Positions 8,776 through 39,534 of a stretch of DNA of 39,534 nucleotides are shown here, in pieces. Each line of letters begins with the position of its first letter. The first letter of the stretch is position 1. The stretch covers positions 1 to 39,534 of the forward strand of contig JBJLBY010000007.1 of NCBI GenBank assembly GCA_045567975.1. Reading direction: 5' to 3'. The position numbers and the translations under genes are program-made. The notes below the pieces were generated by a model. It worked only from the letters and a program-made list of their open reading frames with translations, did not search any database and was not told where the DNA came from. Source of the stretch: Candidatus Poseidoniales archaeon (GTDB lineage Archaea; Thermoplasmatota; Poseidoniia; MGIII; CG-Epi1).

Positions 8776-10278
8776 CTAGGCACCATAGCTATCAATGAAT
8801 ATAGACCGATAAGATGATGCTGCAGCTCTTATTCCAGCTAACAATATACCAAGTGATGCCGCCACAAATATGATACCTGCGAACAAACCGAGATCATGCT
8901 GAATTAGCATTACTGTAGCTGGTAAAATCAACAATATAGAGGAAAAAAGTGCAGAGGTGCCCATGAGCATGAACTGAACTAAAATATCAGGATTACCTCT
9001 ATCGCTCTCATCAAAATTGGCAAAAGCACTTCCAGCCCATACTCCTAGACCTGTGTTTGAGAAAGTTAAAATCAGCAAGCACATGCCAAAGAATAAAGTC
9101 ACCTTTAGAGGAAACTGCGCCAATATGCAAATGGGTAACCATATTGCAAGCAAACCTGGTATTGACATCATAATAATTGCTACAGCCTTTCCTTTCATTA
9201 TTAGATGTGATTCAACTGGATTAGACTTCATTATCCACATCCTCTTTCCCTCAACACCCAATATAGTTGAGCCTAGCATAGTACATTGCAAAAGAGAACC
9301 TAAATACAAACTAATTGCAAGCATCCCTGGATAGTATAGCTTAGGTGGTAAATCACCTACAGGTTCAGTTGGAATTCCAACCTTAAACCACCAGAATATC
9401 ATAATTAAAGATACTGAAAAAGTTGAGAATGCTGAACTCAAGAAATCTCTTTCTCTCAAAGATGAAGTTACTTCTTTTGAGCATATTGAAGAGGCACGAC
9501 GACCTAAAACTGATTTCAACCAGTCAAATTTAAGGATTCTAAATGGGTTCTTATGAAGTGATGAATTCAACTTGTAAGATTCTATAGCTTCTTCGAATAT
9601 TGAGTCCATATTGTAAAAGAATATCAACAAAAGAACTGTACACCCTAATACAACTGCAATAGAAATTTCAGGATAATTATGAGCCCCATTTGCAACAAAC
9701 ATCAGAGCTACTAAAAGTGGAGATAAAGTCATTAGAAATTGAAATTTACGTGAAAAAGGGTGAAGAGAACCAACTATGGAGAACATAAGTCCACAAAGTG
9801 AAGACAAGAACGATAGTAGAAATATAAGAACTAAAAATTCTATATCTAAAGGTATATCTGTGTTAGTAACAATCTTACCAATTGAAAATATAGTAAGAAA
9901 GGATATGAGTAAGATAATATTAGGAATTAAAATAGAAAAAAAAACACCTAACATAATTTGCCTAGGATATATTGGTTGAACTAAATGAATGTCCATTAAT
10001 TTTGATTTTATTACTTTTCTATACCCAATACCTGCAGATCTAAGAGTAAACAAAGCAAAGTAAATTAGCAATATTGTCCCGTAGCCTTCATTTGACCCTT
10101 CAGGAAAAAGCTCAGGATTATCTATAACGAATTTAAGAAGTCTAATACATGCAAAAGAAAATATGAATACTGTAATTCCTATGATTATCGTAGCAGCCAA
10201 TCTTTTTTTTAATGACTGAGAAGTCTTCCTTACTAAACTCCTGAATTCAGCTTCAAATATAGCGTAAGATGCACTCAT
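8776..10278 (-). CDS. polytopic integral membrane protein (about 12 TM), function unknown
   Basis: 500 aa, almost entirely hydrophobic helices. Its ATG overlaps the stop of the upstream 74-aa ORF (ATGA). It may be a permease-like protein, but no diagnostic motif was recognised. Confidence 0.6.
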   Translation of the reverse strand: MSASYAIFEAEFRSLVRKTSQSLKKRLAATIIIGITVFIFSFACIRLLKFVIDNPELFPEGSNEGYGTILLIYFALFTLRSAGIGYRKVIKSKLMDIHLVQPIYPRQIMLGVFFSILIPNIILLISFLTIFSIGKIVTNTDIPLDIEFLVLIFLLSFLSSLCGLMFSIVGSLHPFSRKFQFLMTLSPLLVALMFVANGAHNYPEISIAVVLGCTVLLLIFFYNMDSIFEEAIESYKLNSSLHKNPFRILKFDWLKSVLGRRASSICSKEVTSSLRERDFLSSAFSTFSVSLIMIFWWFKVGIPTEPVGDLPPKLYYPGMLAISLYLGSLLQCTMLGSTILGVEGKRMWIMKSNPVESHLIMKGKAVAIIMMSIPGLLAIWLPICILAQFPLKVTLFFGMCLLILTFSNTGLGVWAGSAFANFDESDRGNPDILVQFMLMGTSALFSSILLILPATVMLIQHDLGLFAGIIFVAASLGILLAGIRAAASSYRSIFIDSYGA

Positions 10279-13573: not shown

Positions 13574-14767
13574 TTACTCGTCACTAGTTACTTCTGAATT
13601 AAGAGAAGCTTGAATCTCCCTTAAACGTTTATCTTCTGCTCGAGCATCTGCATGGCCAGCTTCTACATCGACCATGTACAAAAGAACTAAGCCAATAAGT
13701 AATAATACGGCTATACTAAAAATACCAACACGACTGTCATACATAACCACCATAAGGAAGTAGAGTGTGGGTCCAATAAATGCTGCAACTTTACCAAAGA
13801 ATCCAAAGAAACCAAAGAATTCGGTACTACGCGTTTCTGGTATAATTTGTCCAAAAATACTACGTGATAAACCCTGTGAACCACCAAGTAGTGTTCCCAT
13901 CATGGCTCCTAAAAGTAAAAACTGTAAAAATACAGTCATGCCTAATGGTGCCCAAATATTATCTCGAACCCATACAGGTATAAAATCAATAGAACCATCT
14001 CCAAGGTTCGTAGGATGATTTACACCTACATTATTTTCTCCATCTAAAGGGCCACCTAATACACTAGCACTAAAGCGAGTATCATCTATTGAAACCAAAA
14101 AGGCCTCAATATCTGAATTATCAATATCTGTCAAATTATTTGTAAAATTTACCCACTCTCCATCTACTGTATCTCCATAATTCCAGGATTGTGTCTTAGT
14201 CTTAGTACTATATTCTAATGGAAGTACATTTTTCCACTCATCTGCCCAAGCCTGTTCATCAAACTCTCCATCCCCATAATCCAGTTTCTGTGCAATCTCG
14301 GGAGTATAATAATCAACATGAACCTCGTAAAATCCGACAGGCTGTTCCCCCTCGTTTTCAGAAGCAAATTCATTCCACTCGTAGAGAATAAAATATTCCT
14401 CATGTTCTTCTAATTCAAGAGGAACAAAAGCAAGTGCAGCAAAGCAAAGAATCACCCAACCAATTATAGAAACTGTAAGTGCTTTCTTAGTTCCAATTTT
14501 ATCTGCAAATTTTGTAAAAGCTACTGCAGAAGGTGCTGCAATAAATTGTATTACTAAAATTGTGATTATCAATTCAGTAGTTGTAACACCAAGGACTGTT
14601 GTACCAAAGACGCCACCTAAAGCCGTAACTGTATTTATACCATCTATGAAAAAGAAATAAGCTAACATATACAAAAATAAATTTGGGAATTTTTTGATAT
14701 CTCTTAACGTCTGTGTCACTTCACTTACTGCAAATTTTGCAGCCTTTCTAAACTTCATTGATTCCAA
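13574..14767 (-). CDS. MFS transporter (UMF1/Atg22-like), C-terminal half carrying a roughly 170-aa acidic loop insertion; frame-broken from its N-terminal half
   Basis: It starts in the typical mid-protein linker (LRDIKKFPNLFLYMLAYFFFIDG). This frame is already open upstream as ...CGVPEPPIENELESMKF. See the finding on the frameshift at 14794-14797. Confidence 0.65.
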   Translation of the reverse strand: MESMKFRKAAKFAVSEVTQTLRDIKKFPNLFLYMLAYFFFIDGINTVTALGGVFGTTVLGVTTTELIITILVIQFIAAPSAVAFTKFADKIGTKKALTVSIIGWVILCFAALAFVPLELEEHEEYFILYEWNEFASENEGEQPVGFYEVHVDYYTPEIAQKLDYGDGEFDEQAWADEWKNVLPLEYSTKTKTQSWNYGDTVDGEWVNFTNNLTDIDNSDIEAFLVSIDDTRFSASVLGGPLDGENNVGVNHPTNLGDGSIDFIPVWVRDNIWAPLGMTVFLQFLLLGAMMGTLLGGSQGLSRSIFGQIIPETRSTEFFGFFGFFGKVAAFIGPTLYFLMVVMYDSRVGIFSIAVLLLIGLVLLYMVDVEAGHADARAEDKRLREIQASLNSEVTSDE

Positions 14768-14768
14768 T

Positions 14769-15461
14769 TCATTTTCTATAGGGGGTTCTGGAACCCCACA
14801 TAAAAGTCAAGAGAGCAAAACCATACCACCATATTCCCGCTGTTGCCATACAGAATGGTATTACTGAGGCTCCAAGTGTCAAAAATAGACCCATATGAAT
14901 CAAAAGAAGAATGCCACCTCCCAAGTATCCATAAGCAAATGCTCGGTTTGAAATATCATCCATTTCATTTTCTTTACCCAAATGAGGTAAAAGAGAATTA
15001 TAGAAAACACCAGCACCATTAAGACCAATATTAGCCAAAAGAAACATTACCATTAACCAAATCCAAGAAGCATTACCAAAAAATGGTGCAAAAGCTAAAA
15101 GGAAAGTTGCCCCAGCACCAACATAAGTCATAATCTTCAACCATTTAATTTTTATCAAACGCCTGTCTGCTATAACTCCAAAAGGAGGACTAACTATTGC
15201 AACAATCAATGTAGCAATAGCTACGGTTAGAGACCACACAGCATCCCCAGTCATTGTTATAGATCCAATAGTTGCAGTTAGACCATTAGCCTCAAGAAAC
15301 AGATATGCGTACCAAGCCGGAAGTAATGCAACTGTAACACTAGTCTCAAAAGCAGATTTACCCCAATCATAGAAACCATATCCACTGATTGCCTTTTCTT
15401 TATCCTCGGGAAGATCTTTTAATTTTGAACCTAAACTGAATAATCTAGTGATTGGGTCCAT
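14769..15461 (-). CDS. MFS transporter (UMF1/Atg22-like), N-terminal six-TM half
   Basis: 230 aa with signature YGFYDWGKSAFETS and 6 TM helices. It ends in a stop 1 nt from the start of the next ORF, which encodes the second half of the same family. Confidence 0.65.
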   Translation of the reverse strand: MDPITRLFSLGSKLKDLPEDKEKAISGYGFYDWGKSAFETSVTVALLPAWYAYLFLEANGLTATIGSITMTGDAVWSLTVAIATLIVAIVSPPFGVIADRRLIKIKWLKIMTYVGAGATFLLAFAPFFGNASWIWLMVMFLLANIGLNGAGVFYNSLLPHLGKENEMDDISNRAFAYGYLGGGILLLIHMGLFLTLGASVIPFCMATAGIWWYGFALLTFMWGSRTPYRK

Positions 15462-16160: not shown

Positions 16161-18481
16161 CTATGATGGAATGTTAGCCTTAAGCCTGCTTAATCTATCT
16201 TCACGCTCTAATGTGAATTTATCTATTGCTTCTAAGACCCAACGAGGACTCAAGTGAGCTTCATCAATAATTTCATCAACACTGCCACCAGTTCTCCAAT
16301 TATTATCCCAATCAGGAGAAACGGAATATTCAGATACTAAACGATTAGAAATCCAATTGTGCATAACTCTTAAACCTGTATTAGTAACGATCATTGAATC
16401 AGACCATTCTGTCTCCGAGATTATTGAATCTCTGTATTTCTTTGACTGCATTTGGAACAATTCCCATGAGATTGCTGATACAATTTTTACATTATGCTTT
16501 TGACCTAACTCTTCTAATATTGAAACAATTGTATTAGTTGAGCTAGTGCCCCTTACAATGACCACACCTTTCTTTAGGTCTAGAATCATAATCTCTAATC
16601 AAATAAGCTCCTTTTGAGGCATCCAAATGGCTTGCAATACCCAATTTCTCTCTATCTGGAACTTCAATTGGAGGTCTTGTCAAGTGCAAAGCTACAATCG
16701 GAACGTCTGTAGAGAAAGCAGCCGCAAGAGATGGTGCAACATCATTGTGCTCCCAAGGGTGTAAATTAATTATGTGGCCATTTGGAAATAATTGAGTAAC
16801 GCCTGGTGCAAATATACCAAAATGAGTGCGACTATCCTCTGCGGTTTCAGGACCTGAATGTCCTGCAATCCACAACAATTTTCCTACTTTAATTTGTGAG
16901 TCTTGCGCAACCTGACTAAACAATCGAATTGCACCATATTTTAGATAACTAAATGACCCATATGTACTGAATGAACCAATAAAGCCATTATATTGCTCTA
17001 ATGTATCATTGTTGAAATTTACGGTTGATAAACCTGCCATCATACCTGCATTCGCAAATTCAGTTATACCTTGTGGCATCAATGGTGAGTTTGGATTTGT
17101 AATCTTATCATACATGCCTAAATCCTCCCATATCTCCCCAACCTTTTGCAAAGCCCGAAATATTTGTTGAGCCTGCAAGGTCTGCAGACATTGCAACAAA
17201 CAAAGGCCCTCCCACATTTTTTACGACTACGTGAATTAATCCAAGAAGCTATCTTAGAAAAGCCCAACACGATTTGGTATCTTAGTTCCAGGTTCGGCAA
17301 ATACTTCATCAGGATAATTTTCAAAATCAAATATTTCCTTATCATTTAAAGGATTAGACTCATTTACCTTACATTCATCTATATCCATGGGCACTGAATC
17401 TCCTAATTCAACTAATCTATCTGCTAAATAATCAATTAATTCTTGGTTATTACGCATAACAGCAATTACTGTATTGAAATAATTTTTTGCCTGTATAACT
17501 TGCTCTTCACGTGTCTCTGCCGCAACTTCGCCTGAATTACTAAATGAAATATCATACTTTTCTTCGAAGTCTGATTTCGTTTTCCAAAATAATTCTGAAT
17601 TACGCTTGTGAGGAACTCCGTGTGATTTTTCATCGAAAACATGATAGCCGCGTCCTTTACGAGATTTAGCATAAATCATCTTTGGAATATTATCTTGAGC
17701 ATTGCCAACTACTAAATCATAATATGCTTCAGTAAAGGATGACCAATCTTCATTATCTTCAGTTCCCTCAACATGCCAACCCACTAGTTTCAAACAATTC
17801 TTTAGGAGTTGATTTTACAATAGAACTAAATGGACGACTATCTATACCAAAATCATTCCAATCTACGTAATAGATAATATTTCCAAGACCAAGACCCCAC
17901 GAAGAATTCAATGTTTCATGAGTAACGCCAGTGCTCAGACCACCTTCACCTTCAAAAGCAAATACTTTGACCTCATCAGTTCCAGCCAATTTATGAGCTA
18001 AGGCCTCTCCTGCTGCGGCAGGTGAACCATGTCCACTAGGGCCTGTATTAAATTTGAAAAATAATGTTTTACCTTCCATTTCAGCATGTCCAGGTAAACC
18101 TTTATTCTTACGTAATGTTAGTAAATCTTCCCAGACCAGCTGGAATTCATCTGCATTTCGAACTTGATATTTAGGATCTTTAGTTTGCTCAAATTTCACC
18201 CTAAGTGCTTCATTTAAGACAGCTAAGGTTGCATAGACCATAGGATTGTCATGACCTGCTACCAAAACAAATCTATCTGCAAACCTCTTAGTTGGGTCTC
18301 TCAGATCCCAACGCATGGCGCCTGAAAGAAGTGTGATAAGCATTCCATGAACTTTAGAACGTGATCCTCCAGGATGTCCACTTTGACTCAAATTCAAAGT
18401 TATATCGATACATTGATCGATTAAATCCTTAGTTATTTCCCAAAATTTATAATCTTTTTCCAATACGCTTGGCTTGTCCAT
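16161..18481 (-). pseudogene. transketolase-family (TPP-dependent) gene disrupted by at least 5 single-nt frameshifts
   Basis: Four track ORFs (17768..18481, 17254..17793, 16543..17217, 16161..16589), plus pieces in two other frames, tile one transketolase-like protein of about 770 aa. The pieces are: TPP-binding SGHPGGS...GHDNPMVYA...GPSGHG...FEGEGG; then GWHVEG...KSRKGRGY...KSHGVPH; then (other frames) GFSKIASWINS and GGPLFVAMSADLAGSTNISGFAKGWG; then the pyrimidine-binding domain GITEFANAGMMAGL...IAGHSGPETAEDSRTHFG; then the C-terminal domain KGVVIVRGTSST. Confidence 0.75.
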
Positions 18482-28935: not shown

Positions 28936-31900
28936 TCAATTGTCAGCCTCAAAACCATCTGTCATTCCATCACCATCTGTGTCTTCATCCCAAGGATTGG
29001 TATTTGCTTCCTCTTCCCTCCAATTAGGGAAATTATGCCACACACCTTCCCAATCTTCCCAACCATCATCGTCATAATCTAAGAACCCATCAGCTCCATC
29101 AAGCGGATCTAAAGTCTGATTGGCTAACTTCGATTCGTGCTCATTCCAATATATTTCCCAGCCATCTGTGCAATTATCTGAATCTGTGTCTGCTTTAGTT
29201 GGATTTGTGCCTCTCAAGAATTCCTCATAATTTGTAAATTTCTCTGATGGTGACAACTCCCCGTCGCCATCAGCATCATATCCATCATTATCATTGTCAA
29301 ATACTGCATCTAGTGGAGAATTTGCATCTAAGCCATAATAGCCTTCCCAACCATCTGGCATGCCATCACCATCTGTATCATTATTCCGAGGATCTGTACC
29401 ATTCAAATATTCTTCATAATTTGTAAATTTTTCCCACTCTTCTATAGTTCCATTCTGGTTAAAATCCCAACCATCATCATCTAGGTCCTGTTCACCGTCA
29501 GCTGGATTAAATGGATCTAAATCAAACAGGAATTCCCAGCCATCTGGCATACCATCACCATCTGAATCGGGATTAGAAGGGTCTGTGACATAGCCATCAC
29601 TTCCAACAAAACATTCCTCCCAGTCTTCTATCATGTCTCCATCAGTATCTTTGAGTGTCGGATTAGAGCCAGTTATATTGTCTGAACTGAAGACATTATC
29701 ATCAAAGCCGTCAACTAAGCTATTATTGTATTCATGTAAATTAATCAAGGAATCGTTGTCTGAGTCTATCTGCGCATCACTTGAATTTAATGGTTGTAAA
29801 TTCCAATGTATCTCCCAACCATCTGGCATACCATCCCCATCAGTGTCACCATTTGTCGGATCTGTTCCATTCAAATATTCATGGAGATTGAAGAATTTCT
29901 CTAGATCTGTTATATTACCATTCCAATCAGCATCAAAACCATCGTTGTCAAGATCTTGAAGAGCATCTGTGGGATCTTTTGGATTAAGACCATATTTTGC
30001 TTCCCATCCATCTGGCATTCCATCGCCGTCTGTGTCATTACAAGTTGGATCTGTCAGATAATTGAACAACTCTTCACCATCTAACAAGCCGTCATCGTCA
30101 GTATCATTATCTCTAGGAGATGAAGAAGTTACATTATCTATTTCAAGGTAAGGACCTGCAGCAGTATTGTTGTATTCTAAACTGTTAATGACGCCATCTT
30201 GATCGGGATCTGCTCCTGCATCTAACGGATTAAGTGGATCTAAATCATGTATCCATTCCCAGCCATCCCACATACCGTCTAAATCTGTGTCAACATGACG
30301 TGGATCTGTATCTGCCTGAAACTCATAAACATTAATATGTTCTTCAATTTTCTCTATTGTTCCATTATAATTAGAATCAAAGCCATCATTGTCAAAATCA
30401 ATAGTTCCATCAAAATCATACAAGGGATTGAATCCGTAGTAAAGCTCCCAACCATCTGATGTACCATCATCATCAGTATCATTATCATTTGGTGAAGTAT
30501 TATTCAAAAATTCTTCAATATTAGTATAGGGTTCAGCCAATAAAACAAATCCATCTCGATTTGCATCATATCCATCATTATCACTATCCAAATCTGCATC
30601 AGAAGGGTCTGTAGGGGTAAGATTGTGGTATGCCTCCCAACCATCAAACATTGAATCTCCATCTGTATCATTGTTTGTCGGATCAGTGCCATTCAAATAT
30701 TCTTGTAGATTTGTAAAGTATTCATCAATTGAGATAGCCAAATTGCGATCATAGTCCCAGCCATCATTGTCCAGATCTTGGTTTGCATCCAAAGGAGATA
30801 TTGGATTGAGGCCATATTGATACTCCCATCCATCTGGCATTCCATCTCCGTCAGTATCATTGCTAGTTGGATCTGTGAATGAGAAATACAATTCATCATT
30901 ATCTGTTATGCCATCTCCATCGGTATCATTTGCATCAGGTCTAGTCGATAATATTCCATCTACATCAACCCAGCCAGTCTCGACTAGACTATTGTTGAAT
31001 TCATACAAATTTGGTAAAATGTCATCATCTTTATCTCCAAAATTATCTGAAGGTTGTAATGGATTTAAATCAAAATAAACTTCCCATCCATCTGACATAG
31101 TATCTTCATCTGTATCTGAAGAATATGGGTTAGTTTGATTGAAAAATTCCATATAATTGAGATACCTTTCTCCAAAAGACATCTCTGAATCATAATTTGC
31201 GTCCCACCCATCATTATCTGGATCTAACCATGCATCTGCATTATTTATCGGATTAAAACTACTGTTTGAAGTTAAACCTTTGTGTTTTTCCTTACAATTA
31301 TTATCACTTAGACAAATTGCCAACCAATCTGACCAAAAAATTTCCCATCCATCTGTCATCCAGTCTGCATCGGTATCATTTACCCAAGGACTAGTGCCTG
31401 CTTGATATTCTTCCAAATTAGTAAACATTTCATCGGAATTTATGATATTATTGCCATCTGCATCATATCCATCATTGTCATTATCCTCCTCAGCATCAAT
31501 ATCTGAAATTGGATTTAAATTATAGTAATCCTCCCAACCATCTGGCATACCATCACCATCACTGTCTGAATTGGTTGGATCTGTGCTATTTCCTAATATC
31601 AAACGCATCTCAAATTCCATTAAATTAGTAAAATATTCATCTTCTTCAATCAATCCATTACGATTCCTATCATGACCATCCATGTCAAAATCCAGAGCTG
31701 CATCAGCTGCATCAAAAGGATCTAAACCATAATCCATTTCCCACCAATCTGGCATTCCATCATTATCACTATCTTGTGTCGGTAAGTTCGAATCTAAAGT
31801 AGCCGATTCTGATTCAATATGTTGAGAAGATCTGAAAGAAACTAAGGGGGGGGGGGGGCGAAAATGGAAGGGCTGCAAGTAGCATAATCACTACTGCTAG

Positions 31901-31942
31901 GACTACGTAACGCCTTCCGCCACCTGCATTGGGGTCCGCCAT
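28936..31942 (-). CDS. secreted, highly acidic thrombospondin-type-3-like Ca-binding repeat protein (about 15 repeats); frame interrupted at a poly-C(13) tract just after the signal peptide
   Basis: The body is the 980-aa track ORF (28936..31878), built of repeated DxDxDG(M)PDGWE..YGLNP...DxDNDG.D...NG.I...E.FTNLxEYLNGTDP units. The real start is inferred to be ATG 31942, in another frame (MADPNAGGGRRYVVLAVVIMLLAALPFS-PPPP). The frames join if the C-run is 12 nt instead of 13 nt. Confidence 0.7.
31846..31858 (-). repeat. homopolymer: 13 G on plus strand (13 C on the coding strand)
   Basis: Read directly from the sequence: actaa-GGGGGGGGGGGGG-cgaaaatgg. It is the longest G/C homopolymer I noticed in the window and lies between the signal-peptide codons and the mature protein. 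Confidence 0.95.
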
Positions 31943-31964
31943 AGGTAACTAGGTTATCACTGGT

Positions 31965-31971
31965 CTATAAA
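31965..31971 (-). promoter_or_regulatory. TATA-like box (TTTATAG) for the TSP3-repeat gene / cluster
   Basis: Centred at 31968, exactly about 26 nt upstream of ATG 31942. This supports 31942 as a leaderless start. Confidence 0.35.
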
Positions 31972-31982
31972 GGGTTCATCGG

Positions 31983-33059
31983 TCAAATATACTGCAAGCT
32001 ACGAGGCAGTGATGTCAAGCTTTGTGAATCAGACTCTGAAAGGTAAACATCATCCTCTATGCGAATACCGCCTAAATCTGGGATATAGATTCCTGGTTCA
32101 ATAGTAAAAGTCATACCTTTTTGCAGAACAAAACTACTATCTGGTTTGATGTAAGGTTCCTCATGTATTTCAAGACCTAAACCATGACCTGTTCTATGTG
32201 TGAAATACTGACCAAAACCTGCATCTTCAATTATTTTTCTAGCTGCGGAGTCAACATCTCCAGCTTTTACTCCAACTTTTGCTATATTTCTTGCAGATTC
32301 ATTAGCCGATTTTACTGCATTATATGCCTCAAGCAAATTAGAATTTATGGTGCTACCAAGAGCAAATGTTCTTGTTATATCTGAAAAATAACCCTTGTAA
32401 TTAGCTCCCCAATCAATGATTATCAGCTCATTTTCCTCAAATTTCTTGTCTCCAGGATAATGATGCGGATTGGCCGCATTAACACCAGAAGCTACAATTG
32501 GTGAAAAAGGAAGATCTGACAATGAACCATTACGCAATAATTGTATCACCAATTCTGAGGCAAATTCCTTCTCAGTTACACCTGGTTTTATTTTGTCGAG
32601 AATAGACATTATTGACATCTCAGCAATACTTACTGCTTCAGCCATTAATTCCAATTCTGTAGAAGACTTAGGCATCCTAAGTGTAGCGAATATATCAGTA
32701 GCGTCATGAATATCAATTGAGATATCTTTTGCATTAATAATATCCAACTCTATATGGCGAATTAAGCGAGATTCAACTCCTAATTTTTTAATCTTCCGAT
32801 TAAATTTACTAAACGCCGATTCATAGCCTTCTTGATCATTATAAGTTATAAAATCAAAACCCAAATTCGATATCTTTGGACTTTCTAGCTCAGGTAAAAT
32901 GAAAGTGGAATTACTTTTTTCTATGAAGAGAACAACGGGCCTTTCACTCAAGTGAAACTTGGAGCCAGTTAGATACTCCATATTAGGACCAGGAACAATT
33001 GCCAATCCATCAAAAGAATGCTGACCCATAATCTCTCTAATTCTTTCGAGGTTCTTCAT
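31983..33059 (-). CDS. M24B family Xaa-Pro aminopeptidase/dipeptidase
   Basis: 358 aa. Creatinase-like N-domain plus pita-bread fold with metal ligands in IIIDWGANYKGYFSDITRT, HRTGHGLGLEIHEEP, TIEPGIY and GIRIEDDV. Confidence 0.88.
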   Translation of the reverse strand: MKNLERIREIMGQHSFDGLAIVPGPNMEYLTGSKFHLSERPVVLFIEKSNSTFILPELESPKISNLGFDFITYNDQEGYESAFSKFNRKIKKLGVESRLIRHIELDIINAKDISIDIHDATDIFATLRMPKSSTELELMAEAVSIAEMSIMSILDKIKPGVTEKEFASELVIQLLRNGSLSDLPFSPIVASGVNAANPHHYPGDKKFEENELIIIDWGANYKGYFSDITRTFALGSTINSNLLEAYNAVKSANESARNIAKVGVKAGDVDSAARKIIEDAGFGQYFTHRTGHGLGLEIHEEPYIKPDSSFVLQKGMTFTIEPGIYIPDLGGIRIEDDVYLSESDSQSLTSLPRSLQYI

Positions 33060-33878: not shown

Positions 33879-35597
33879 TTATTTCTTTTTAGAATCTACT
33901 ACAATACTGTGCTTGGAATCTTTCAAATCTTCTTCATCTAATTCTGAATTTGTAATCACGGAAGATTCAACATTGACATTATCTTTACTGAATTCAAGAG
34001 TAGATTTACTAATAACAGAATGCTGAATATTGATAATCTGGGTTACTTGCGTTGGTCTGGCGGCTTGTATCCTAGATAAAACCCTAGCAGCAATAGGTAA
34101 ATCCGAATTGAGAGAAGTTACTTCTCTTATCATCTCGATATCAACACCTAATTTTTCCAAATCAGATAATGTGTAATTGTATGTCAAGGTATCAACCATT
34201 GAAAGGAATGAGTCTTTCTCACGAAGCATATTTTTCTTGTAACGTGATACAGTAATATCCCAAGCACCAGTAACTGCTTGTTTCTTGTATTTATCTTCAT
34301 AAGTTTTGTCTGCAAATTTGAGTTTAATAGTCTGAATGTCAGCCCTTAATGGATTATTTCGTCCAGTTCCTTGAAGAACATCTGCCCAAGTATCGTGTGG
34401 GAAACCAATTGTAGTTCCCTCTCCAGACAAATAGACAATCATCTGATTGAAAGTGTTATGATTTTGTTTGTCATCAAACATTTCCTCAAATTCGGATTCA
34501 ATCTCATCTGCAAAAGAACGATAGAGCATCTCATTGCATCTTCTATCTCTCATATAATCTGACAGGAATATCATACAAGCTAAAGCGTGTAATCCTCCTT
34601 TCTTGTAATTTGGACCATCTTTCAACAATCTTTGCAATATCAGAGCCACATAATTTTCCATTCCTTTTCTAGAATTATCTGTTACAAAATTCTTTGTTAA
34701 TGCCGAAATGCCATTGTATTGCATTTCCTTAATCATTAGCCAAATAAAAATTGGACTTCCCTGTGCATAATTTGTCAATTCTTTGATAGAAGATGGATCA
34801 TGCTTAATGTTTGAGAAATCAAACATTCTCTCGCATAATCGAGAAACATTATCGTCCGAAAATAAAGGAACTGTTAGACGCTTAAACTTCTTCTGAAAAT
34901 CGTCTGGCAATTTATTCCAATCTGCTTCTCTAGCTGTAACAACTAAACCTTTAGCATCATTATCCATAATCCCTTGAACAATATCGATATTCTCTGGAAT
35001 ATCGTCATAAAATAATCTAATTCCAAATTCTAAATGTGCATCAGACATTTCTGTTGTTGTAAGTATACCAGTTGGAACTTTGTCCATAAATGAATCAAAT
35101 ATTTCAAATAATAGAGTAGTTTTCCCTACGCCGGGTTCTCCAATAATAACATAATTATCATCAGATTTACTGCTCAAAACCTCTAGAATATGTGAAGCTC
35201 GCTCATCATCCAAATAAACATTTTTTCTAAGATTTGGTGGAAGGCTCCATTCACTCAAGACAGTCGCTGGGTCAGTTGGAATCTCAAAATAAGATGATAC
35301 TGAAATATCCTTGAAATTATTGTGTAGCTTGTCTAATTCTTTGACATTATCTGGCCATTCTGCATAACACTTCCAACGACTTGTGAATAAATCAAGAAAA
35401 GTTTTGCCGTCTGGAGCTAAATCTGCTGGTTTTTCCCATTCTTGAACTGAGGATCTATACTGTAGATTATTATCTTCTTTCTTGGTTTCGACCTTTGCAG
35501 GAGGTTCAATTTTTTCACCGCGATCAAATTTTCTTTTCTTCGAATCTGCAAGAGCTTTAGCTTTCTGAATCCTCTCAAGGATTTCTTCATAAGACAT
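33879..35597 (-). CDS. STAND / NB-ARC-like P-loop NTPase, cytoplasmic
   Basis: 572 aa. Walker A VIIGEPGVGKTTLLFEI, Walker B IRLFYDDIPE, and an hhhTxR-type sensor motif LVVTAREADW about 25 aa later, then a helical domain of about 330 aa. Its ATG overlaps the stop of the upstream giant gene (TAATG at 35595-35599). Confidence 0.6.
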   Translation of the reverse strand: MSYEEILERIQKAKALADSKKRKFDRGEKIEPPAKVETKKEDNNLQYRSSVQEWEKPADLAPDGKTFLDLFTSRWKCYAEWPDNVKELDKLHNNFKDISVSSYFEIPTDPATVLSEWSLPPNLRKNVYLDDERASHILEVLSSKSDDNYVIIGEPGVGKTTLLFEIFDSFMDKVPTGILTTTEMSDAHLEFGIRLFYDDIPENIDIVQGIMDNDAKGLVVTAREADWNKLPDDFQKKFKRLTVPLFSDDNVSRLCERMFDFSNIKHDPSSIKELTNYAQGSPIFIWLMIKEMQYNGISALTKNFVTDNSRKGMENYVALILQRLLKDGPNYKKGGLHALACMIFLSDYMRDRRCNEMLYRSFADEIESEFEEMFDDKQNHNTFNQMIVYLSGEGTTIGFPHDTWADVLQGTGRNNPLRADIQTIKLKFADKTYEDKYKKQAVTGAWDITVSRYKKNMLREKDSFLSMVDTLTYNYTLSDLEKLGVDIEMIREVTSLNSDLPIAARVLSRIQAARPTQVTQIINIQHSVISKSTLEFSKDNVNVESSVITNSELDEEDLKDSKHSIVVDSKKK

Positions 35598-38500
35598 TAT
35601 TCACTTCCCTTGTTCTTTTGGAAAGATTCTTGCAAATTCTGAGAATAATCGGAACCTACATCCCCTTCCATTTGTGAATTAAGCAAGGCCTCAATTTCAG
35701 CAATCTCAGCTTCAAGTTCAGGTGATGAAACACCAGCTGCTTCTAATTCTGCAACAACACTTTGTAATTCATCCAACTGTTGCATAGTACCCATTGCCTG
35801 ATCTGTAACGCCTGTGTAATTGTTGAGCAATTCTTGGGCATTAGCCATATCTCCTGAGAAATATCTTAATCCCTCTAAGCCTTCTAAATCTTGAATGGCT
35901 TGATTCAAGCTTGAATCATCAACTCCAGCATCAATCAAACTTTGTAATCCTTCAACAATTTGACCTACTGACTGTCTAGCTCCATACTCTGCAAATGCAG
36001 CACCTATCAACGCTGCACCAGCAAGTAGCATTCCATAAACAAATGGATCTCCATCGAACGGTAAAGCCATTTCCTCACTACCTAAATCTGGATCTACAGA
36101 CCCGTAAACACAGCTACCATCATCTGTATCTGCTTCTGGATTGAAGTTGGTCGCTGTGGAATCTACGCAACCAAGAATTGGTTCTACAAACTCACAACTG
36201 CCATCATCAATCGTTGCCTCTGGATTGTAATTTACAGCATCCATATTGAGACAACCTGGTATATCATAGACGCAACTTCCATCGTCCGTATCAGCTTCTG
36301 GATTGAAGTTAATAGCCATAGAATCAACACAACCAAATATTGGTTCTATGAATTCACAAGTTCCATCATCTACAGTTGCTTCGGGATTGTAATTAGTAGC
36401 ATCCATATTCATACAACCTAGAATCTCATAGACGCAACTTCCATCGTCTGTATCTGCTTCTGGGTTGAAGTTAATAGCTGAAGAGTCAACACAACCAAAT
36501 ATTGGTTCTACAAACTCACAACTGCCATCGTCAACTGTTGCTTCGGGATTGTAATTGGTAGCATCCATATTCATGCAGCCGTATATCCCTGAATTAACAA
36601 TAATTATAATTTCTTTTGCTGGGTCCCAACTTCCGGTAAGTACAGTGAGCCAGATACCTTGCTGTTGTACGAGCAAATCAATGTAATGTGTTCCAACTGA
36701 TAAATTATTTGTACTGAAATTTGCATTACTACTGAGGAATCCATCTATGTTTGATTCCCAAACAAGTGCTTCAACACCTTGCCAATTTGTCAAATCAGAA
36801 GTAAAATATACTAGCTCTCCAGAATATGAAGGATTAGGTGTTATACTGTAATCTGCCAATTGTATCATATATTGCAAGATTACAACATAAGACATACTAG
36901 AATCTGACCAAACATCATCGCTATCTCTTACCCTGAAAGTTATAGTGTGATTTCCTGTTGATAGACTATTCGTATGGAATATCTCAGACTCACTCAAAAC
37001 ACCATCTAAATTGGAAGTCCATTCATAACCAACAATATCTCCATCAGAATCTGAAGAATTGGAATAGAAATTGACTCGTTGACCATTATAGGCTAAATTA
37101 GAATCTTGCCATCCATAACCTCTAATGGATATATTATGAACTACAGGGGGCTGGTTCTGAATATCTATATCTAATTCAAAGGTTGTGTTAGTAGACCAAT
37201 CTCCATCGTCATCCTGAGCCCTGAATGTAATAGAATGAACTCCTGCAGACAAATCATCAGTACTGAAATTACCACTGCTGCTGAGGAAACCATCTATACT
37301 AGAATCCCAATAATGTCCGGTAATCGAACCATCAGAATCTGAGAAATTAGAATAGAAATATACTCTTTCTCCATATTCTGCTGGATTTGGACTTACATTA
37401 TAATCTGTTAATTCTGGAGCATCATTACCGAGAATTTCCCATATCAAACTGACCGAATCTCCTTCATTACCTGAAGCATCTGTTGCTTTTACCTGGAACT
37501 GATGATATGTGCCTCTTGCTAATCCTGTATAAGTCTTAGGACTTGAACAACTAGACCATGTTCCGTAATTCAATTTACATTTGAATGTAACATCATCTTC
37601 GTCAGCTTCAAAGTAGAAAGTAGCATTTGTGTAGTCACTTGGGTTTGAAGGTCCACTAGTAATGTTTGCTACAGGTGCTGTTGAGTCACTCACAGTGAAA
37701 TTCATTATTCTGGAAGTAGCCGAACCTGAAGGATCTGTTGCAACAACCTTCCAATAATATTTCTTGGATTCTGTAAGGCCTGTGACCAAATGGGTGTAAT
37801 TGGTGATATCATCAGCGATTAGGGCTGCAGAATTGTTGGTAGCAACATCATTGTAGATGAAACTGAGATAAACGTCGAAGGTGAGATTTGCGATATCATC
37901 ACTTCCTGGGAACCAGCCTAGTATGGTATCGTTCAGAGTAAGACTGCCACTACGAGGTGCGTAATTCATTACAAATGGACGTGAAGCTGAATCTTCTTTG
38001 AAAAGGTAAACATCATCCTGCTCATTGTTTCCTCTAAGAGAACCTGCTGCGATTAAAGCTCCATCTTTAGAAATGGAAATTGCTCTCCCAGATTCATTAT
38101 AATTCCACAGAAGATTACCATCCTCCTTAGAAAGTAAGTAGATCTTATCAGAAATAGCTGCAATATAATTCCCATCTGCAGATAGTGAAACTATAGGCCT
38201 ATTTCCTGTATTATAAGACCAAACTGGTGTAGAACTATCTTTGTCAAACAAAAATACATCGTTGCCAAAATCTCCTGCAGTTATGTACTCTCCATCAGCT
38301 GATATTGCTACTGATTTAACGCGATTATCTACTGCATAATTCCAAAGAGGTGTGTTACTTCCCCTATTAAATGCCAAAACTTTGTCATATCCACCTACTA
38401 TGTATTCTCCATCTGCTGAAATATCTACACAATGGTCTCTACAACTTTCAAAGCTACCTCCGGTTTGATAGCTCCAAAGAGGTGTGCTACTATTCTTATT

Positions 38501-39534
38501 GAAAAAATAAATTTTTCCAGGATCCCAAGCACCTGATGCAGCAACTATGAAACTCCCATCTGCTGAAATTGCGACAGATTGAACATCATCCTCTGTATCA
38601 TAACTCCAAAGAGGCGTGCTACTATCTTTGTGGAAAAGATATATTTTATCATTCTGTGAACCTACTACAATGTAGTCACCATCTGCTGAAATTGCAACTG
38701 AATATATTGGAGATGAACCATCTGGCTCAGATTTCCATAAAGGTGTAGAGCTATTTTTATTGAACAATAAAACTGAACCTGAATTATACGGCCCTATTCC
38801 TGCAACAATGTAATTTGCATTTGCAGATATTGAAAGTGAAGTGACTCCAGAATCAGTTTCATAGCTCCATATAGGTGTAGAACTGCTTGTACCATAAAGA
38901 TAGACGCTGTTACCACTTGAGTAATCGCCAACCACAATATATTCTCCGTCTGCAGATATTGCAATTGATTCAATCTGAACTGGAGAACTGTTATTCCACT
39001 CAGGACTTTTCCTAACATCCACCCAGCTTGTCTCATCATCAGACCAGACTCCGTCATTGTCCTTGACTCTGAAAGTTATGGTATGATTTCCAAAGCTTAG
39101 GTCGGTCTTTGAGAAACTGGCGGAATTAGATAAATCACCATCAATAGAAGATATCCACTTGTATTCTGATATTGTTCCATCTTGATCACTTCCACTTCCT
39201 GAAAACGATACTGAAGCATCCAATTCAGCAATCTGCGGTGATATCGAATCAATACTAGCAGTAGGTGGATAAGATGCCAAAACAATAATCTGGCCTTGAT
39301 AATCATCATCATACTGACAGGAATAATTGTAAGTTCCAACATCATCGAAAGTGTAACTCCAACTATTTCCAGGAAGTATACTTCCAGAATCGAATTCATC
39401 ATCATCTTCCTTCACCGTGTGGATTGAACTGTCGTCATTGGTCCAAATCACAGTTGAATCCTTGAGTATCGTCAATGTATTTGGATCATAATCATCATCG
39501 ATAGATACACAGAATATGTTGCCGTAAGATGTAA
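35597..39534 (-). CDS. giant surface protein (5'-partial): cupredoxin-like domain, PKD domains, 8-bladed beta-propeller, FN3/Ig-like domains, six Cys-bounded NYNPEA..DDGSC modules, TM helix, cytoplasmic coiled-coil tail
   Basis: The track ORF starts at a TTG (39475), but the frame stays open to the window edge (…TSYGNIFCVSIDDDYDPNT-LTILKD), so the gene is truncated by the window. The propeller has 8 repeats of about 42 aa, S(V/I)AISADG.YIV.G....IYLF.K.SSTPLWSY (about 37975-38998). PKD-like motif SGSGSDQDGTISEYKW...HTITFRVKDNDG. TM helix FVYGMLLAGAALIGAAFA. Confidence 0.8.
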   Translation of the reverse strand, partial: TSYGNIFCVSIDDDYDPNTLTILKDSTVIWTNDDSSIHTVKEDDDEFDSGSILPGNSWSYTFDDVGTYNYSCQYDDDYQGQIIVLASYPPTASIDSISPQIAELDASVSFSGSGSDQDGTISEYKWISSIDGDLSNSASFSKTDLSFGNHTITFRVKDNDGVWSDDETSWVDVRKSPEWNNSSPVQIESIAISADGEYIVVGDYSSGNSVYLYGTSSSTPIWSYETDSGVTSLSISANANYIVAGIGPYNSGSVLLFNKNSSTPLWKSEPDGSSPIYSVAISADGDYIVVGSQNDKIYLFHKDSSTPLWSYDTEDDVQSVAISADGSFIVAASGAWDPGKIYFFNKNSSTPLWSYQTGGSFESCRDHCVDISADGEYIVGGYDKVLAFNRGSNTPLWNYAVDNRVKSVAISADGEYITAGDFGNDVFLFDKDSSTPVWSYNTGNRPIVSLSADGNYIAAISDKIYLLSKEDGNLLWNYNESGRAISISKDGALIAAGSLRGNNEQDDVYLFKEDSASRPFVMNYAPRSGSLTLNDTILGWFPGSDDIANLTFDVYLSFIYNDVATNNSAALIADDITNYTHLVTGLTESKKYYWKVVATDPSGSATSRIMNFTVSDSTAPVANITSGPSNPSDYTNATFYFEADEDDVTFKCKLNYGTWSSCSSPKTYTGLARGTYHQFQVKATDASGNEGDSVSLIWEILGNDAPELTDYNVSPNPAEYGERVYFYSNFSDSDGSITGHYWDSSIDGFLSSSGNFSTDDLSAGVHSITFRAQDDDGDWSTNTTFELDIDIQNQPPVVHNISIRGYGWQDSNLAYNGQRVNFYSNSSDSDGDIVGYEWTSNLDGVLSESEIFHTNSLSTGNHTITFRVRDSDDVWSDSSMSYVVILQYMIQLADYSITPNPSYSGELVYFTSDLTNWQGVEALVWESNIDGFLSSNANFSTNNLSVGTHYIDLLVQQQGIWLTVLTGSWDPAKEIIIIVNSGIYGCMNMDATNYNPEATVDDGSCEFVEPIFGCVDSSAINFNPEADTDDGSCVYEILGCMNMDATNYNPEATVDDGTCEFIEPIFGCVDSMAINFNPEADTDDGSCVYDIPGCLNMDAVNYNPEATIDDGSCEFVEPILGCVDSTATNFNPEADTDDGSCVYGSVDPDLGSEEMALPFDGDPFVYGMLLAGAALIGAAFAEYGARQSVGQIVEGLQSLIDAGVDDSSLNQAIQDLEGLEGLRYFSGDMANAQELLNNYTGVTDQAMGTMQQLDELQSVVAELEAAGVSSPELEAEIAEIEALLNSQMEGDVGSDYSQNLQESFQKNKGSE
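36095..36580 (-). repeat. three tandem 162-nt coding repeats (36419-36580, 36257-36418, 36095-36256)
   Basis: Each unit encodes GC(M/L)NMDA(T/V)NYNPEAT(V/I)DDG(S/T)CEF(V/I)EPI(F/L)GCVDS.A(I/T)NFNPEADTDDGSCVY... Units are in exact 162-nt register and look roughly 80-90% identical at DNA level by eye. Confidence 0.9.

What the first reader, a model, noticed from the sequence alone, without database searches (positions are those of the whole stretch)
31814..31942. 13-nt poly-G/C tract separates the signal peptide from the body of the TSP3-repeat gene: candidate slipped-strand ON/OFF switch (or homopolymer miscall)
ATG 31942 has TTTATAG centred 26 nt upstream. It opens a frame encoding MADPNAGGGRRYVVLAVVIMLLAALPFS, a textbook charged n-region plus hydrophobic signal/anchor. 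That frame enters a run of 13 C on the coding strand (31846-31858, encoding PPPP) and then terminates 10 codons later at TGA 31814-31816.

The 980-aa repeat body is in a different frame. Its only 'start' is a TTG (31878), giving an N-terminus (MQPFHFRPPPP...) with no export signal, which is implausible for a Ca-binding extracellular repeat protein. With 12 C (or 15 C) the two parts fuse into one precursor of about 1001 aa; the 28936-31942 span is 3007 nt, or 3n+1.

A long homopolymer placed just after a signal peptide of a surface protein is the classical architecture of bacterial contingency (phase-variable) loci. It is essentially undescribed in archaea. As sequenced, the gene is OFF or mis-assembled.
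Basis: partly seen in the sequence, partly recalled or inferred. Interest (0 to 1): 0.7.

Follow-up and report, generated by a model that had tools for sequence, protein, structure and literature searches.

The report
Private poly-C run: likely assembly error
A run of 13 C's that splits a surface-protein gene of a marine archaeon occurs only in this one assembled contig, which carries six other run-lengthening frameshift errors, so it is most likely a sequencing/assembly artefact and not a genetic on/off switch.

Summary
There are 13 G (+ strand) at 31846-31858. The 42-aa signal-like ORF and the 980-aa TSP3-repeat ORF are one gene, and 12 or 15 C would fuse them.

The tract is private to this contig, a GenBank MAG named 'Candidatus Poseidoniales archaeon' whose nearest genomes are Marine Group III.
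- All 31 orthologous loci read at DNA level, and about 60 orthologous proteins, have a single Pro codon (…LPFS-P-LVSF…) and an intact 972-998 aa gene.
- Three independent contigs match the gene body at 99.97%. They carry CCC, and the 10-nt gap is their only real indel over more than 7 kb.
- No G/C run of 7 or more occurs in 356 kb of related DNA.

The same contig also has six other private +1 insertions, each lengthening a 2-3-nt run. Five break a transketolase and one breaks an MFS transporter. Both genes are intact in relatives and are restored exactly by deleting those bases.

The frame break is therefore most likely a consensus error (about 0.8). The tract may be wholly artefactual (about 0.5) or a private in-frame (CCC)4 allele plus one miscalled base (about 0.3); this cannot be settled without reads. 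An evolved phase-variation switch is not supported.

The parts
31846..31858 (-). 13-nt poly-C tract (poly-G on + strand). It is a private 10-nt excess over the ancestral CCC Pro codon.
   Evidence: for the tract. The alignment with L001-L003 and with L004-L006 places a clean 10-nt gap at 31849-31858.
31814..31942 (-). 42-aa ORF. It is the authentic N-terminus (charged n-region plus hydrophobic signal/anchor) of the TSP3-repeat protein, running into a spurious frame after the tract.
   Evidence: Orthologues P0001-P0054 start MADP..GGRRYVVLAVVIMLLAALPFSPLVSF and continue in frame.
28936..31878 (-). 980-aa body ORF of the TSP3-repeat protein (PF18884). The TTG 'start' is an artefact of the frame break. 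The true gene spans 28936-31942.
   Evidence: The body is 99.97% identical to L004-L006, which encode the intact 998-aa P0127.
31965..31978 (-). Conserved promoter element TGAACCCTTTATAG (archaeal BRE/TATA-like) upstream of ATG 31942.
   Evidence: It is invariant in alignment A1 and present in 30/30 orthologous loci, with the TTTATA starting 29-31 nt before the ATG.
14794..14797 (-). Another private +1 insertion in the same contig (GGGG versus GGG). It splits an ATG22/UMF1-type MFS transporter gene (13574-15461).
   Evidence: The repaired protein is 628 aa, the same length as P0260 (97% identity), and more than 100 orthologues are intact at 617-620 aa. L047 (93.3% nt identity) has GGG.
16161..18481 (-). 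Transketolase gene broken by five private +1 insertions. The sequence contexts lie at 17772-17791, 17253-17271, 17201-17216, 17113-17128 and 16562-16578.
   Evidence: Relatives L048-L050 have one 772-aa ORF. Deleting five single bases restores a 771-aa ORF that aligns without gaps over 770 aa (80.5% identity) to the L048 protein.

Best explanation
The gene at 28936-31942 (minus strand) is an ordinary, conserved, intact gene. It encodes a roughly 998-aa N-terminally signal-anchored TSP3-repeat (calcium-binding-type) surface protein. It is the first gene of a conserved cluster in Marine Group III archaea: TSP3 protein, a 1980-aa Ig-like/DUF4129 protein, DUF4350, a MoxR ATPase and DUF58.

The frame break at the poly-C tract is a sequencing/consensus error of this particular MAG contig, not a biological OFF state. 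The contig shows a recurrent error signature: an extra base added to an existing short run. The tract is the extreme instance, with CCC read as C13.

Shown:
- The tract is private to this contig.
- Orthologues are intact.
- Six other private +1 insertions occur in the same contig.

Inferred:
- These lesions are technical rather than mutational.

Unresolved:
- Whether nine of the ten extra C are real, that is an in-frame (CCC)4 = PPPP allele with one miscalled base, or the whole excess is artefact. I lean towards whole-excess artefact at roughly 0.5 versus 0.3.

The confidence given (0.78) is for the claim that the frame break is technical and the gene is intact in vivo.
For: 1. The tract is private.
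- L001 and L007-L012 have TCG CCC TTA at the site. L002, L003 and L029 have TCT CCT TTA. Eighteen further MGIII loci have CCA, CCT or CCG.
- About 60 orthologous or allelic proteins have LPFSPLV.

2. Near-identical independent assemblies lack it.
- L004, L005 and L006 come from three ENA assemblies. They are 99.97% identical to the window over 28936-31790 and carry CCC.
- The 10-nt gap is the only indel in more than 7 kb of L005 and L006.

3. The tract is foreign to the lineage.
- There is no G/C run of 7 or more in 355,772 nt of related loci and none above 6 elsewhere in the window.

4. The same contig has six more private frame-breaking +1 insertions.
- The MFS gene has GGGG where L047 has GGG. 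Its repaired length of 628 aa equals that of P0260.
- The transketolase needs exactly five single-base deletions to give a stop-free 771-aa ORF. That ORF aligns without gaps to the intact 772-aa orthologue.
- All seven lesions are insertions that extend a run. There are no nonsense codons, no deletions and no other damage, which is not what decaying pseudogenes look like.

5. Exact-sequence look-ups for the 42-aa ORF and nine tract-length or allele variants found nothing among about 15 billion proteins.

6. Gene-fragmenting indels at short homopolymers are a documented error class of long-read or poorly polished assemblies (PMC12007338, PMC9262707, doi 10.1101/2021.08.23.457338).
Against: - No common chemistry is known to overcall a 3-nt run by 10. 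The other six errors are all +1.
- The excess is 3n+1. That is what a real in-frame +9 allele plus this contig's typical +1 error would give, so part of the tract may be real.
- The six other errors cluster at 13.5-18.5 kb, 13 kb from the tract. The 15 kb around the tract (18.5-34 kb) is otherwise free of frame breaks.
- Long A/T runs in the window (A8, A9, T8) do not break ORFs, so the error process is not a simple function of run length.
- The sequencing platform and read support are unknown to me.
- If the contig came from a pure de Bruijn short-read assembly, reads carrying the tract must exist.
Confidence: 0.78

Rival explanations
1. The tract is a real, private, recently expanded allele. 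This one MGIII population carries about 12-13 C at this site. A tract of that length slips at high rate, so the gene would switch ON (12 or 15 C, PPPP/PPPPP insertion after the anchor helix) and OFF (13 C) stochastically. This would be a newborn, de facto phase-variable locus. The sequenced state is either truly OFF or a 12-C allele miscalled by one base.
For: - The excess is 3n+1, which fits an in-frame +9 plus one base.
- The insertion sits exactly on a pre-existing CCC, as slippage would require and as a random join would not.
- The tract lies in a 680-nt block (31795-32475) where the window's haplotype matches no other assembly. The block is about 90.5% identical to L004-6 and about 88% to the L001 type, so its allele history is unsampled.
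- In a k-mer assembly the tract would have to be present in reads (inference).
Against: - No intermediate (C6, C9) or alternative lengths appear in 31 loci or in the protein clusters.
- No other G/C run of 7 or more occurs in 356 kb of the lineage.
- The insertion interrupts a strongly conserved motif, LPFSPLVSF. Residues 10-45 are the most conserved segment, with mean column conservation 0.88.
- The contig demonstrably contains six other spurious-looking insertions.
Confidence: 0.2
2. The tract is an evolved contingency locus. It would be a maintained slipped-strand ON/OFF switch for a surface protein, as in Neisseria, Haemophilus or Campylobacter, here in an archaeon.
For: Only the anatomy supports this: a long G/C homopolymer just after the signal/anchor segment of a surface protein.
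Against: - The tract is not conserved in any orthologue, including relatives 89-98% identical overall (up to 99.97% in the gene body).
- No length polymorphism was found.
- There are no similar tracts at the 5' ends of the other large surface-protein genes in the window (1980 aa, 1292 aa) or in related loci.
Confidence: 0.03
3. The gene is decoded by programmed recoding. A +1 ribosomal frameshift on CCC_C, or transcriptional slippage on the C run, would normally produce the full-length protein from the 13-C gene.
For: - The shift needed is +1.
- From general knowledge, CCC-C sites and poly-Pro stalls favour +1 slippage, and long homopolymers favour RNA polymerase slippage. If the tract is real, some leaky full-length product is plausible.
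Against: - Recoding sites are conserved, and this one exists in a single contig.
- All relatives encode the protein in one frame.
Confidence: 0.02
4. The frameshifts are genuine pseudogenisation. This lineage would be losing the TSP3 protein, the transketolase and the MFS transporter through real frameshift mutations, for example in a mutator background.
For: - There are seven frame-breaking lesions in three genes.
- Six of them cluster within 5 kb, which could reflect local relaxed selection.
Against: - All seven are insertions.
- After repair there are zero nonsense codons, zero deletions and zero alignment gaps over 770 aa of transketolase.
- The TSP3 body is 99.97% identical to intact alleles.
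- From general knowledge, slippage mutations should strike the many A6-A9 and T6-T8 runs first. Those runs are intact.
- From general knowledge, large marine populations purge such alleles.
Confidence: 0.06

Closest known systems
Gene-fragmenting homopolymer indel errors in draft, long-read or poorly polished (meta)genome assemblies
   Same: - The lesion is private to one assembly.
- It extends an existing run of identical bases.
- It co-occurs with other single-base run extensions that split genes intact in all relatives.
- Repair restores full-length, gap-free orthologue alignments (PMC12007338, doi 10.1101/2021.08.23.457338).
   Different: - The magnitude is +10 on a 3-nt run. Typical errors are ±1-2 and concentrate in longer runs.
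- The long A/T runs of this contig are unaffected.
Simple-sequence-repeat (slipped-strand) phase-variable contingency loci of bacteria, e.g. poly-G/C tracts in Neisseria, Haemophilus, Campylobacter and Helicobacter surface genes
   Same: A G/C homopolymer longer than 9 nt sits in the 5' coding region just after the export signal of a surface protein. Tract length decides the frame.
   Different: - There is no conservation of the tract.
- There is no length polymorphism among strains.
- There is no enrichment of such tracts in the lineage.
- The host is a free-living planktonic archaeon.
- A survey of homopolymeric tracts that included 18 archaeal genomes found no 5' bias for poly-G/C tracts (PMC2831843).
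Bacterial/archaeal TSP3-repeat proteins (Pfam PF18884) encoded next to MoxR-DUF58-DUF4350-DUF4129 genes
   Same: - The body matches PF18884.
- Synteny with the 1980-aa Ig-like/DUF4129 protein, DUF4350, MoxR AAA_3 and DUF58 is conserved in L007, L008, L045 and L048-50.
   Different: Nothing unusual apart from the tract. Function is known only at the domain level.

Membership tests
SSR-mediated phase-variable (contingency) locus | A long homopolymer or short tandem repeat inside the 5' coding region or promoter, whose length sets the reading frame or expression. | tested here: met
   In this contig only, 13 C lie 84 nt after the ATG. 12 or 15 C restore the frame.
SSR-mediated phase-variable (contingency) locus | Tract length varies among strains, populations or reads. 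| tested here: not met
   All 31 orthologous loci have one Pro codon. In the 90%-identity protein cluster (31 members, 15 of them listed) only the window's own entry (P0121) carries PPPP. Ten hypothetical length variants are absent from about 15 billion proteins. The MAG's own read-level heterogeneity could not be examined.
SSR-mediated phase-variable (contingency) locus | The tract is maintained in orthologues, and/or such tracts are over-represented in surface genes of the genome. | tested here: not met
   There is no G/C run above 6 elsewhere in the window and none of 7 or more in 355,772 nt of related MGIII loci.
SSR-mediated phase-variable (contingency) locus | Reversible ON/OFF switching of the product is demonstrated. 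| not testable with these tools
   This needs reads, cultures or single-cell data.
Programmed ribosomal frameshift / transcriptional slippage gene | The slippery site and the two-frame gene organisation are conserved among orthologues. | tested here: not met
   All orthologues are single-frame and lack the tract.
Assembly/consensus indel artefact | The lesion is private to one assembly, while near-identical independent assemblies are intact. | tested here: met
   L004-L006 are 99.97% identical in the gene body and have CCC.
Assembly/consensus indel artefact | Other gene-fragmenting indels of the same kind occur in the same contig. | tested here: met
   There are six +1 run-extending insertions in the transketolase and MFS genes. 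Both genes are intact in relatives.
Assembly/consensus indel artefact | The lesion lacks support in accurate reads. | not testable with these tools
   Raw reads and the sequencing-technology field of the GenBank record are not available here.
TSP3_bac repeat protein (PF18884) | A significant match to the Pfam model above the gathering score. | tested here: met
   E = 3.2e-10 and 40.1 bits against a cut-off of 25. The homologues are all annotated PF18884.

The most novel reading that the evidence does not exclude
The tract is real. One Marine Group III population has recently expanded a single CCC Pro codon to 12-13 C at the exit of the signal-anchor helix of a conserved surface TSP3 protein. 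This would create a newborn hypermutable ON/OFF (or PPPP-insertion) allele, and would catch a contingency locus in a planktonic archaeon at its birth.
Probability: 0.12. Interest if true: 0.6.

Novelty: not a real feature. Interest (0 to 1): 0.12.

Why it matters
**If the tract were real:** it would be a rare glimpse of homopolymer-driven phase variation arising in an uncultured open-ocean archaeon.

**As it stands, the value is practical.**
- The GenBank annotation (MFL2941286.1, a 980-aa protein from a TTG start with no export signal) is almost certainly a truncated model of a 998-aa signal-anchored protein.
- The same contig mis-reports a transketolase and an MFS transporter as fragments.
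- Pseudogene counts or metabolic reconstructions from this MAG, for example 'no transketolase', would be wrong.
- The case also shows that a textbook-looking contingency-locus anatomy in a single MAG needs orthologue and read checks before it is interpreted.

Tried and rejected
1. **Exact-protein look-ups.** I looked up the window's M24 peptidase and the 980-aa ORF to find other assemblies of the same strain. Neither is on record.
2. **DNA pattern scan.** I scanned JGI metagenomes for TTTTCG-N{2,30}-TTAGTTTCTTTCAGATCTTC to catch tract-length variants. There were 0 hits. I replaced this with a protein-guided scan, which gave 18 loci.
3. **Exact look-up of tract-length variants.** I looked up ten hypothetical tract-length or allele variants of the 42-aa ORF. 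None is present. This is weak negative evidence, because gene callers rarely report such short ORFs.
4. **Chimeric assembly join at the tract.** The SNP pattern changes near the tract. The site-by-site table shows a fine mosaic across 31795-32475. Many differences are derived states private to L004-6 and others are private to the window. This fits a recombination or hypervariable block better than a two-piece join, so the join idea is neither confirmed nor fully excluded.
5. **Two-colour 'dark-cycle' poly-G artefact.** Rejected by reasoning. Such errors replace bases, whereas here both flanks are complete and nothing is missing.
6. **A 10-N scaffold gap converted to G.** Judged unlikely, because the insertion sits exactly on a pre-existing GGG.
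7. **Split transketolase as the natural archaeal two-gene form.** Rejected. Relatives have a single 772-aa ORF, and conserved motifs run across the frame changes.

Full report
**1. The observation**

The minus (coding) strand reads …CTTCCATTTTCG-C13-TTAGTTTCTTTC…, with the C run at 31846-31858.
- ATG 31942 opens a 42-aa ORF, MADPNAGGGRRYVVLAVVIMLLAALPFSPPPPLSFFQIFSTY, which stops at 31814-31816.
- The 980-aa TSP3-repeat ORF (28936-31878, TTG start) is in the +1 frame.
- In-silico tract lengths of 12 and 15 give 1001- and 1002-aa fusions. Lengths of 11, 13 and 14 terminate early.
- The window is 36.9% G+C and its next-longest G or C run is 6. An iid model expects 5e-5 runs of 13 or more.

**2. 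Source of the contig and identity of the gene**

- The 980-aa ORF is identical to GenBank protein MFL2941286.1 (locus tag ACJZ2N_00595, 'MAG: Candidatus Poseidoniales archaeon'), on a 39,534-nt contig. That contig is this window.
- The nearest species-representative genomes are Marine Group III euryarchaeotes / Poseidoniia, at 62-65% identity over the N-terminal third. One unnamed archaeal MAG reaches 82%.
- The body matches Pfam TSP3_bac.
- The gene heads a conserved cluster: TSP3 protein, a 1980-aa TSP3/Ig-like/DUF4129 protein, DUF4350, a MoxR AAA_3 ATPase, DUF58 and a 281-aa protein. An M24 peptidase gene lies just upstream.
- An invariant TGAACCCTTTATAG has its TTTATA starting 29-31 nt before the ATG in 30/30 orthologous loci. 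ATG 31942 is therefore the authentic start.

**3. Comparative test of the tract**

I searched with the 12-C fusion protein. It returned more than 50 full-length orthologues (972-998 aa, 58-95% identity).
- Every one begins MA..GGRRYVVLAVVIMLLAALPFS-P-LVSF…. Each has one proline where the window has PPPP plus one base.
- At DNA level the site is TCG CCC TTA in the closest relatives and TCT/TCC/TCA followed by CCT/CCA/CCG in the rest. This holds for 31 loci from ENA, JGI and GTDB genomes.
- The tract is therefore a clean 10-nt pure-C excess over an ancestral CCC.

The sharpest comparison uses three contigs from three independent assemblies, L004, L005 and L006.
- They encode the 998-aa P0127.
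- They are 99.97% identical to the window across the gene body (28936-31790).
- In L005 and L006 the 10-nt gap is the only indel in more than 7 kb. L004 has one further 3-column gap at about 26806, opposite a run of NNN.

Further checks gave the same answer.
- In the 90%-identity protein cluster (31 members, 15 of them listed), only the window's own entry carries PPPP.
- Exact look-ups of ten hypothetical length variants found nothing.
- In 355,772 nt of MGIII-like loci there is no G/C run of 7 or more.

That is the outcome, as far as public assemblies can show.

**4. The contig has a wider problem**

Pfam scans of the neighbouring ORFs showed an ATG22/UMF1-type MFS transporter in two pieces and a transketolase in four pieces.

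*MFS transporter*
- Three-frame translation shows conserved sequence running across each junction.
- Deleting one G from GGGG at 14794-14797 gives a 628-aa protein.
- That is exactly the length of P0260 (97% identity). More than 100 orthologues are intact at 617-620 aa.
- L047, at 93.3% nucleotide identity, has GGG at the site. Its only other indel is intergenic.

*Transketolase*
- Relatives L048-L050 encode one 772-aa ORF.
- The window needs exactly five single-base deletions to restore a 771-aa ORF.
- The repaired ORF has no internal stop and aligns over 770 residues without a single gap (80.5% identity).
- The first junction restores the canonical …FETSGWHVEG… motif, which aligns contiguously to solved transketolases.
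- Each extra base lengthens a run of two or three identical bases. In two cases it is ambiguous which of two neighbouring runs was lengthened.

*What this means*
- The window holds seven frame-breaking lesions. All are insertions that extend a run, and all are private.
- There are no nonsense codons, deletions or other damage.
- Real decaying pseudogenes accumulate deletions and stops. Real slippage should first hit the many A6-A9 and T6-T8 runs, which are intact.
- This signature fits a technical consensus error, a class well documented for long-read or poorly polished assemblies (PMC12007338; PMC9262707; doi 10.1101/2021.08.23.457338).

**5. What most likely happened**

The frame break at the tract is most likely a consensus error (about 0.8). 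In the organism the gene is an intact signal-anchored TSP3 protein, like its orthologues.

What cannot be settled without reads is whether the whole 10-nt excess is artefactual.

*For a whole-excess artefact*
- No intermediate alleles exist.
- The tract is alien to the lineage.
- It interrupts the most conserved segment of the protein. Residues 10-45 have mean column conservation of 0.88, against 0.70-0.85 elsewhere.

*For a partly real tract*
- The excess is 3n+1. That is what an in-frame (CCC)4 allele plus this contig's typical +1 error would give.
- It sits exactly on a pre-existing CCC.
- It lies in a 680-nt block (31795-32475) where the window's haplotype matches no other assembly. The block is about 90.5% identical to L004-6 and about 88% to the L001 type. 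It looks like a fine mosaic, consistent with recombination.

My estimates:
| Reading | Probability |
|---|---|
| Whole excess is artefact | about 0.5 |
| Real C12 allele plus one miscalled base | about 0.3 |
| Real C13 null allele | about 0.12 |
| Anything else | the remainder |

If a 12-13-C tract is real it would be physically hypermutable. It would then be a newborn private allele, not an evolved, maintained switch.

**6. Comparison with known systems**

- The anatomy resembles bacterial contingency loci. The defining comparative features, length polymorphism and maintenance or enrichment of tracts, were tested and not met.
- Programmed frameshifting is excluded for the same reason: there is no conservation.
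- The closest match is the gene-fragmenting homopolymer indel of draft assemblies. The atypical point is the size, +10 on a 3-nt run.

**7. Verdict**

This is most probably not a real biological feature, and interest is low (0.12). The useful outputs are a corrected gene model (28936-31942, about 998-1001 aa with an N-terminal anchor) and a warning that this MAG contig contains at least seven spurious frame breaks.

Noticed in passing
window 16161-18481 (minus strand): The transketolase gene is split into four or more ORFs by five private +1 insertions, with contexts at 17772-17791, 17253-17271, 17201-17216, 17113-17128 and 16562-16578. Removing them restores a 771-aa ORF that aligns without gaps to the intact 772-aa orthologue in L048.
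   Followed up: yes
window 13574-15461 (minus strand), lesion at 14794-14797: An ATG22/UMF1-type MFS transporter is split by one extra G (GGGG here, GGG in L047). The repaired length of 628 aa equals that of P0260, and more than 100 orthologues are intact.
   Followed up: yes
window 31795-32475: This 680-nt block covers the 3' end of the M24 peptidase gene, the promoter and the first ~150 nt of the TSP3 gene. It is about 9.5% divergent from L004-L006, while the flanks are 99-100% identical. Site-by-site it is a fine mosaic of alleles shared with different haplotypes plus alleles private to the window. This suggests a recombination or hypervariable block.
   Followed up: partly
window 31965-31978 and 30 orthologous loci: The motif TGAACCCTTTATAG is invariant, with its TTTATA starting 29-31 nt before the start codon in all 30 orthologous loci examined. 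It is an unusually well-conserved archaeal promoter (BRE/TATA-like) element.
   Followed up: yes
window 31830-31942 (N-terminus of the TSP3 protein): The N-terminal segment GGRRYVVLAVVIMLLAALPFSPLVSFxSSQHI is nearly invariant in orthologues that are only 60-70% identical overall. That is more conserved than a cleavable signal peptide usually is. It suggests a retained signal-anchor helix with a specific interaction or processing motif.
   Followed up: partly
window 18531-31942 (and L007, L008, L045, L048-L050): The gene order is conserved: TSP3-repeat protein, 1980-aa TSP3/Ig-like/DUF4129 protein, DUF4350, MoxR AAA_3 ATPase, DUF58 and a 281-aa protein. This is a MoxR-DUF58-type membrane/surface module in Marine Group III.
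   Followed up: partly
whole window; loci L029-L039: GenBank names the MAG 'Candidatus Poseidoniales archaeon', an order-level name usually used for Marine Group II. The nearest species-representative genomes are Marine Group III / Poseidoniia MAGs and SAGs.
   Followed up: partly
proteins P0132, P0140, P0164, P0179 (database hits, not the window): Several public metagenome proteins end in …VSYTHLTLPT…. This is the translation of the Nextera transposase adapter, so those short contigs terminate in untrimmed adapter sequence.
   Followed up: no
locus L045 about 9560-10068: In this otherwise syntenic relative, the transketolase similarity stops at residue ~320 and the contig continues with unrelated sequence. 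This is either a truncated gene or a chimeric contig.
   Followed up: no
window 16161-18481 versus one search hits: Outside MGIII, the best transketolase homologues (about 66% identity) are from Marinimicrobia/Fidelibacterota bacteria. This hints at inter-domain transfer of this long single-chain transketolase.
   Followed up: no
window 33879-39475 (minus strand): A 572-aa protein with weak NACHT/STAND P-loop hits overlaps by one base the stop codon of a 1292-aa WD40/PQQ-propeller + PKD-domain protein encoded just upstream. This gene pair was not examined further.
   Followed up: no
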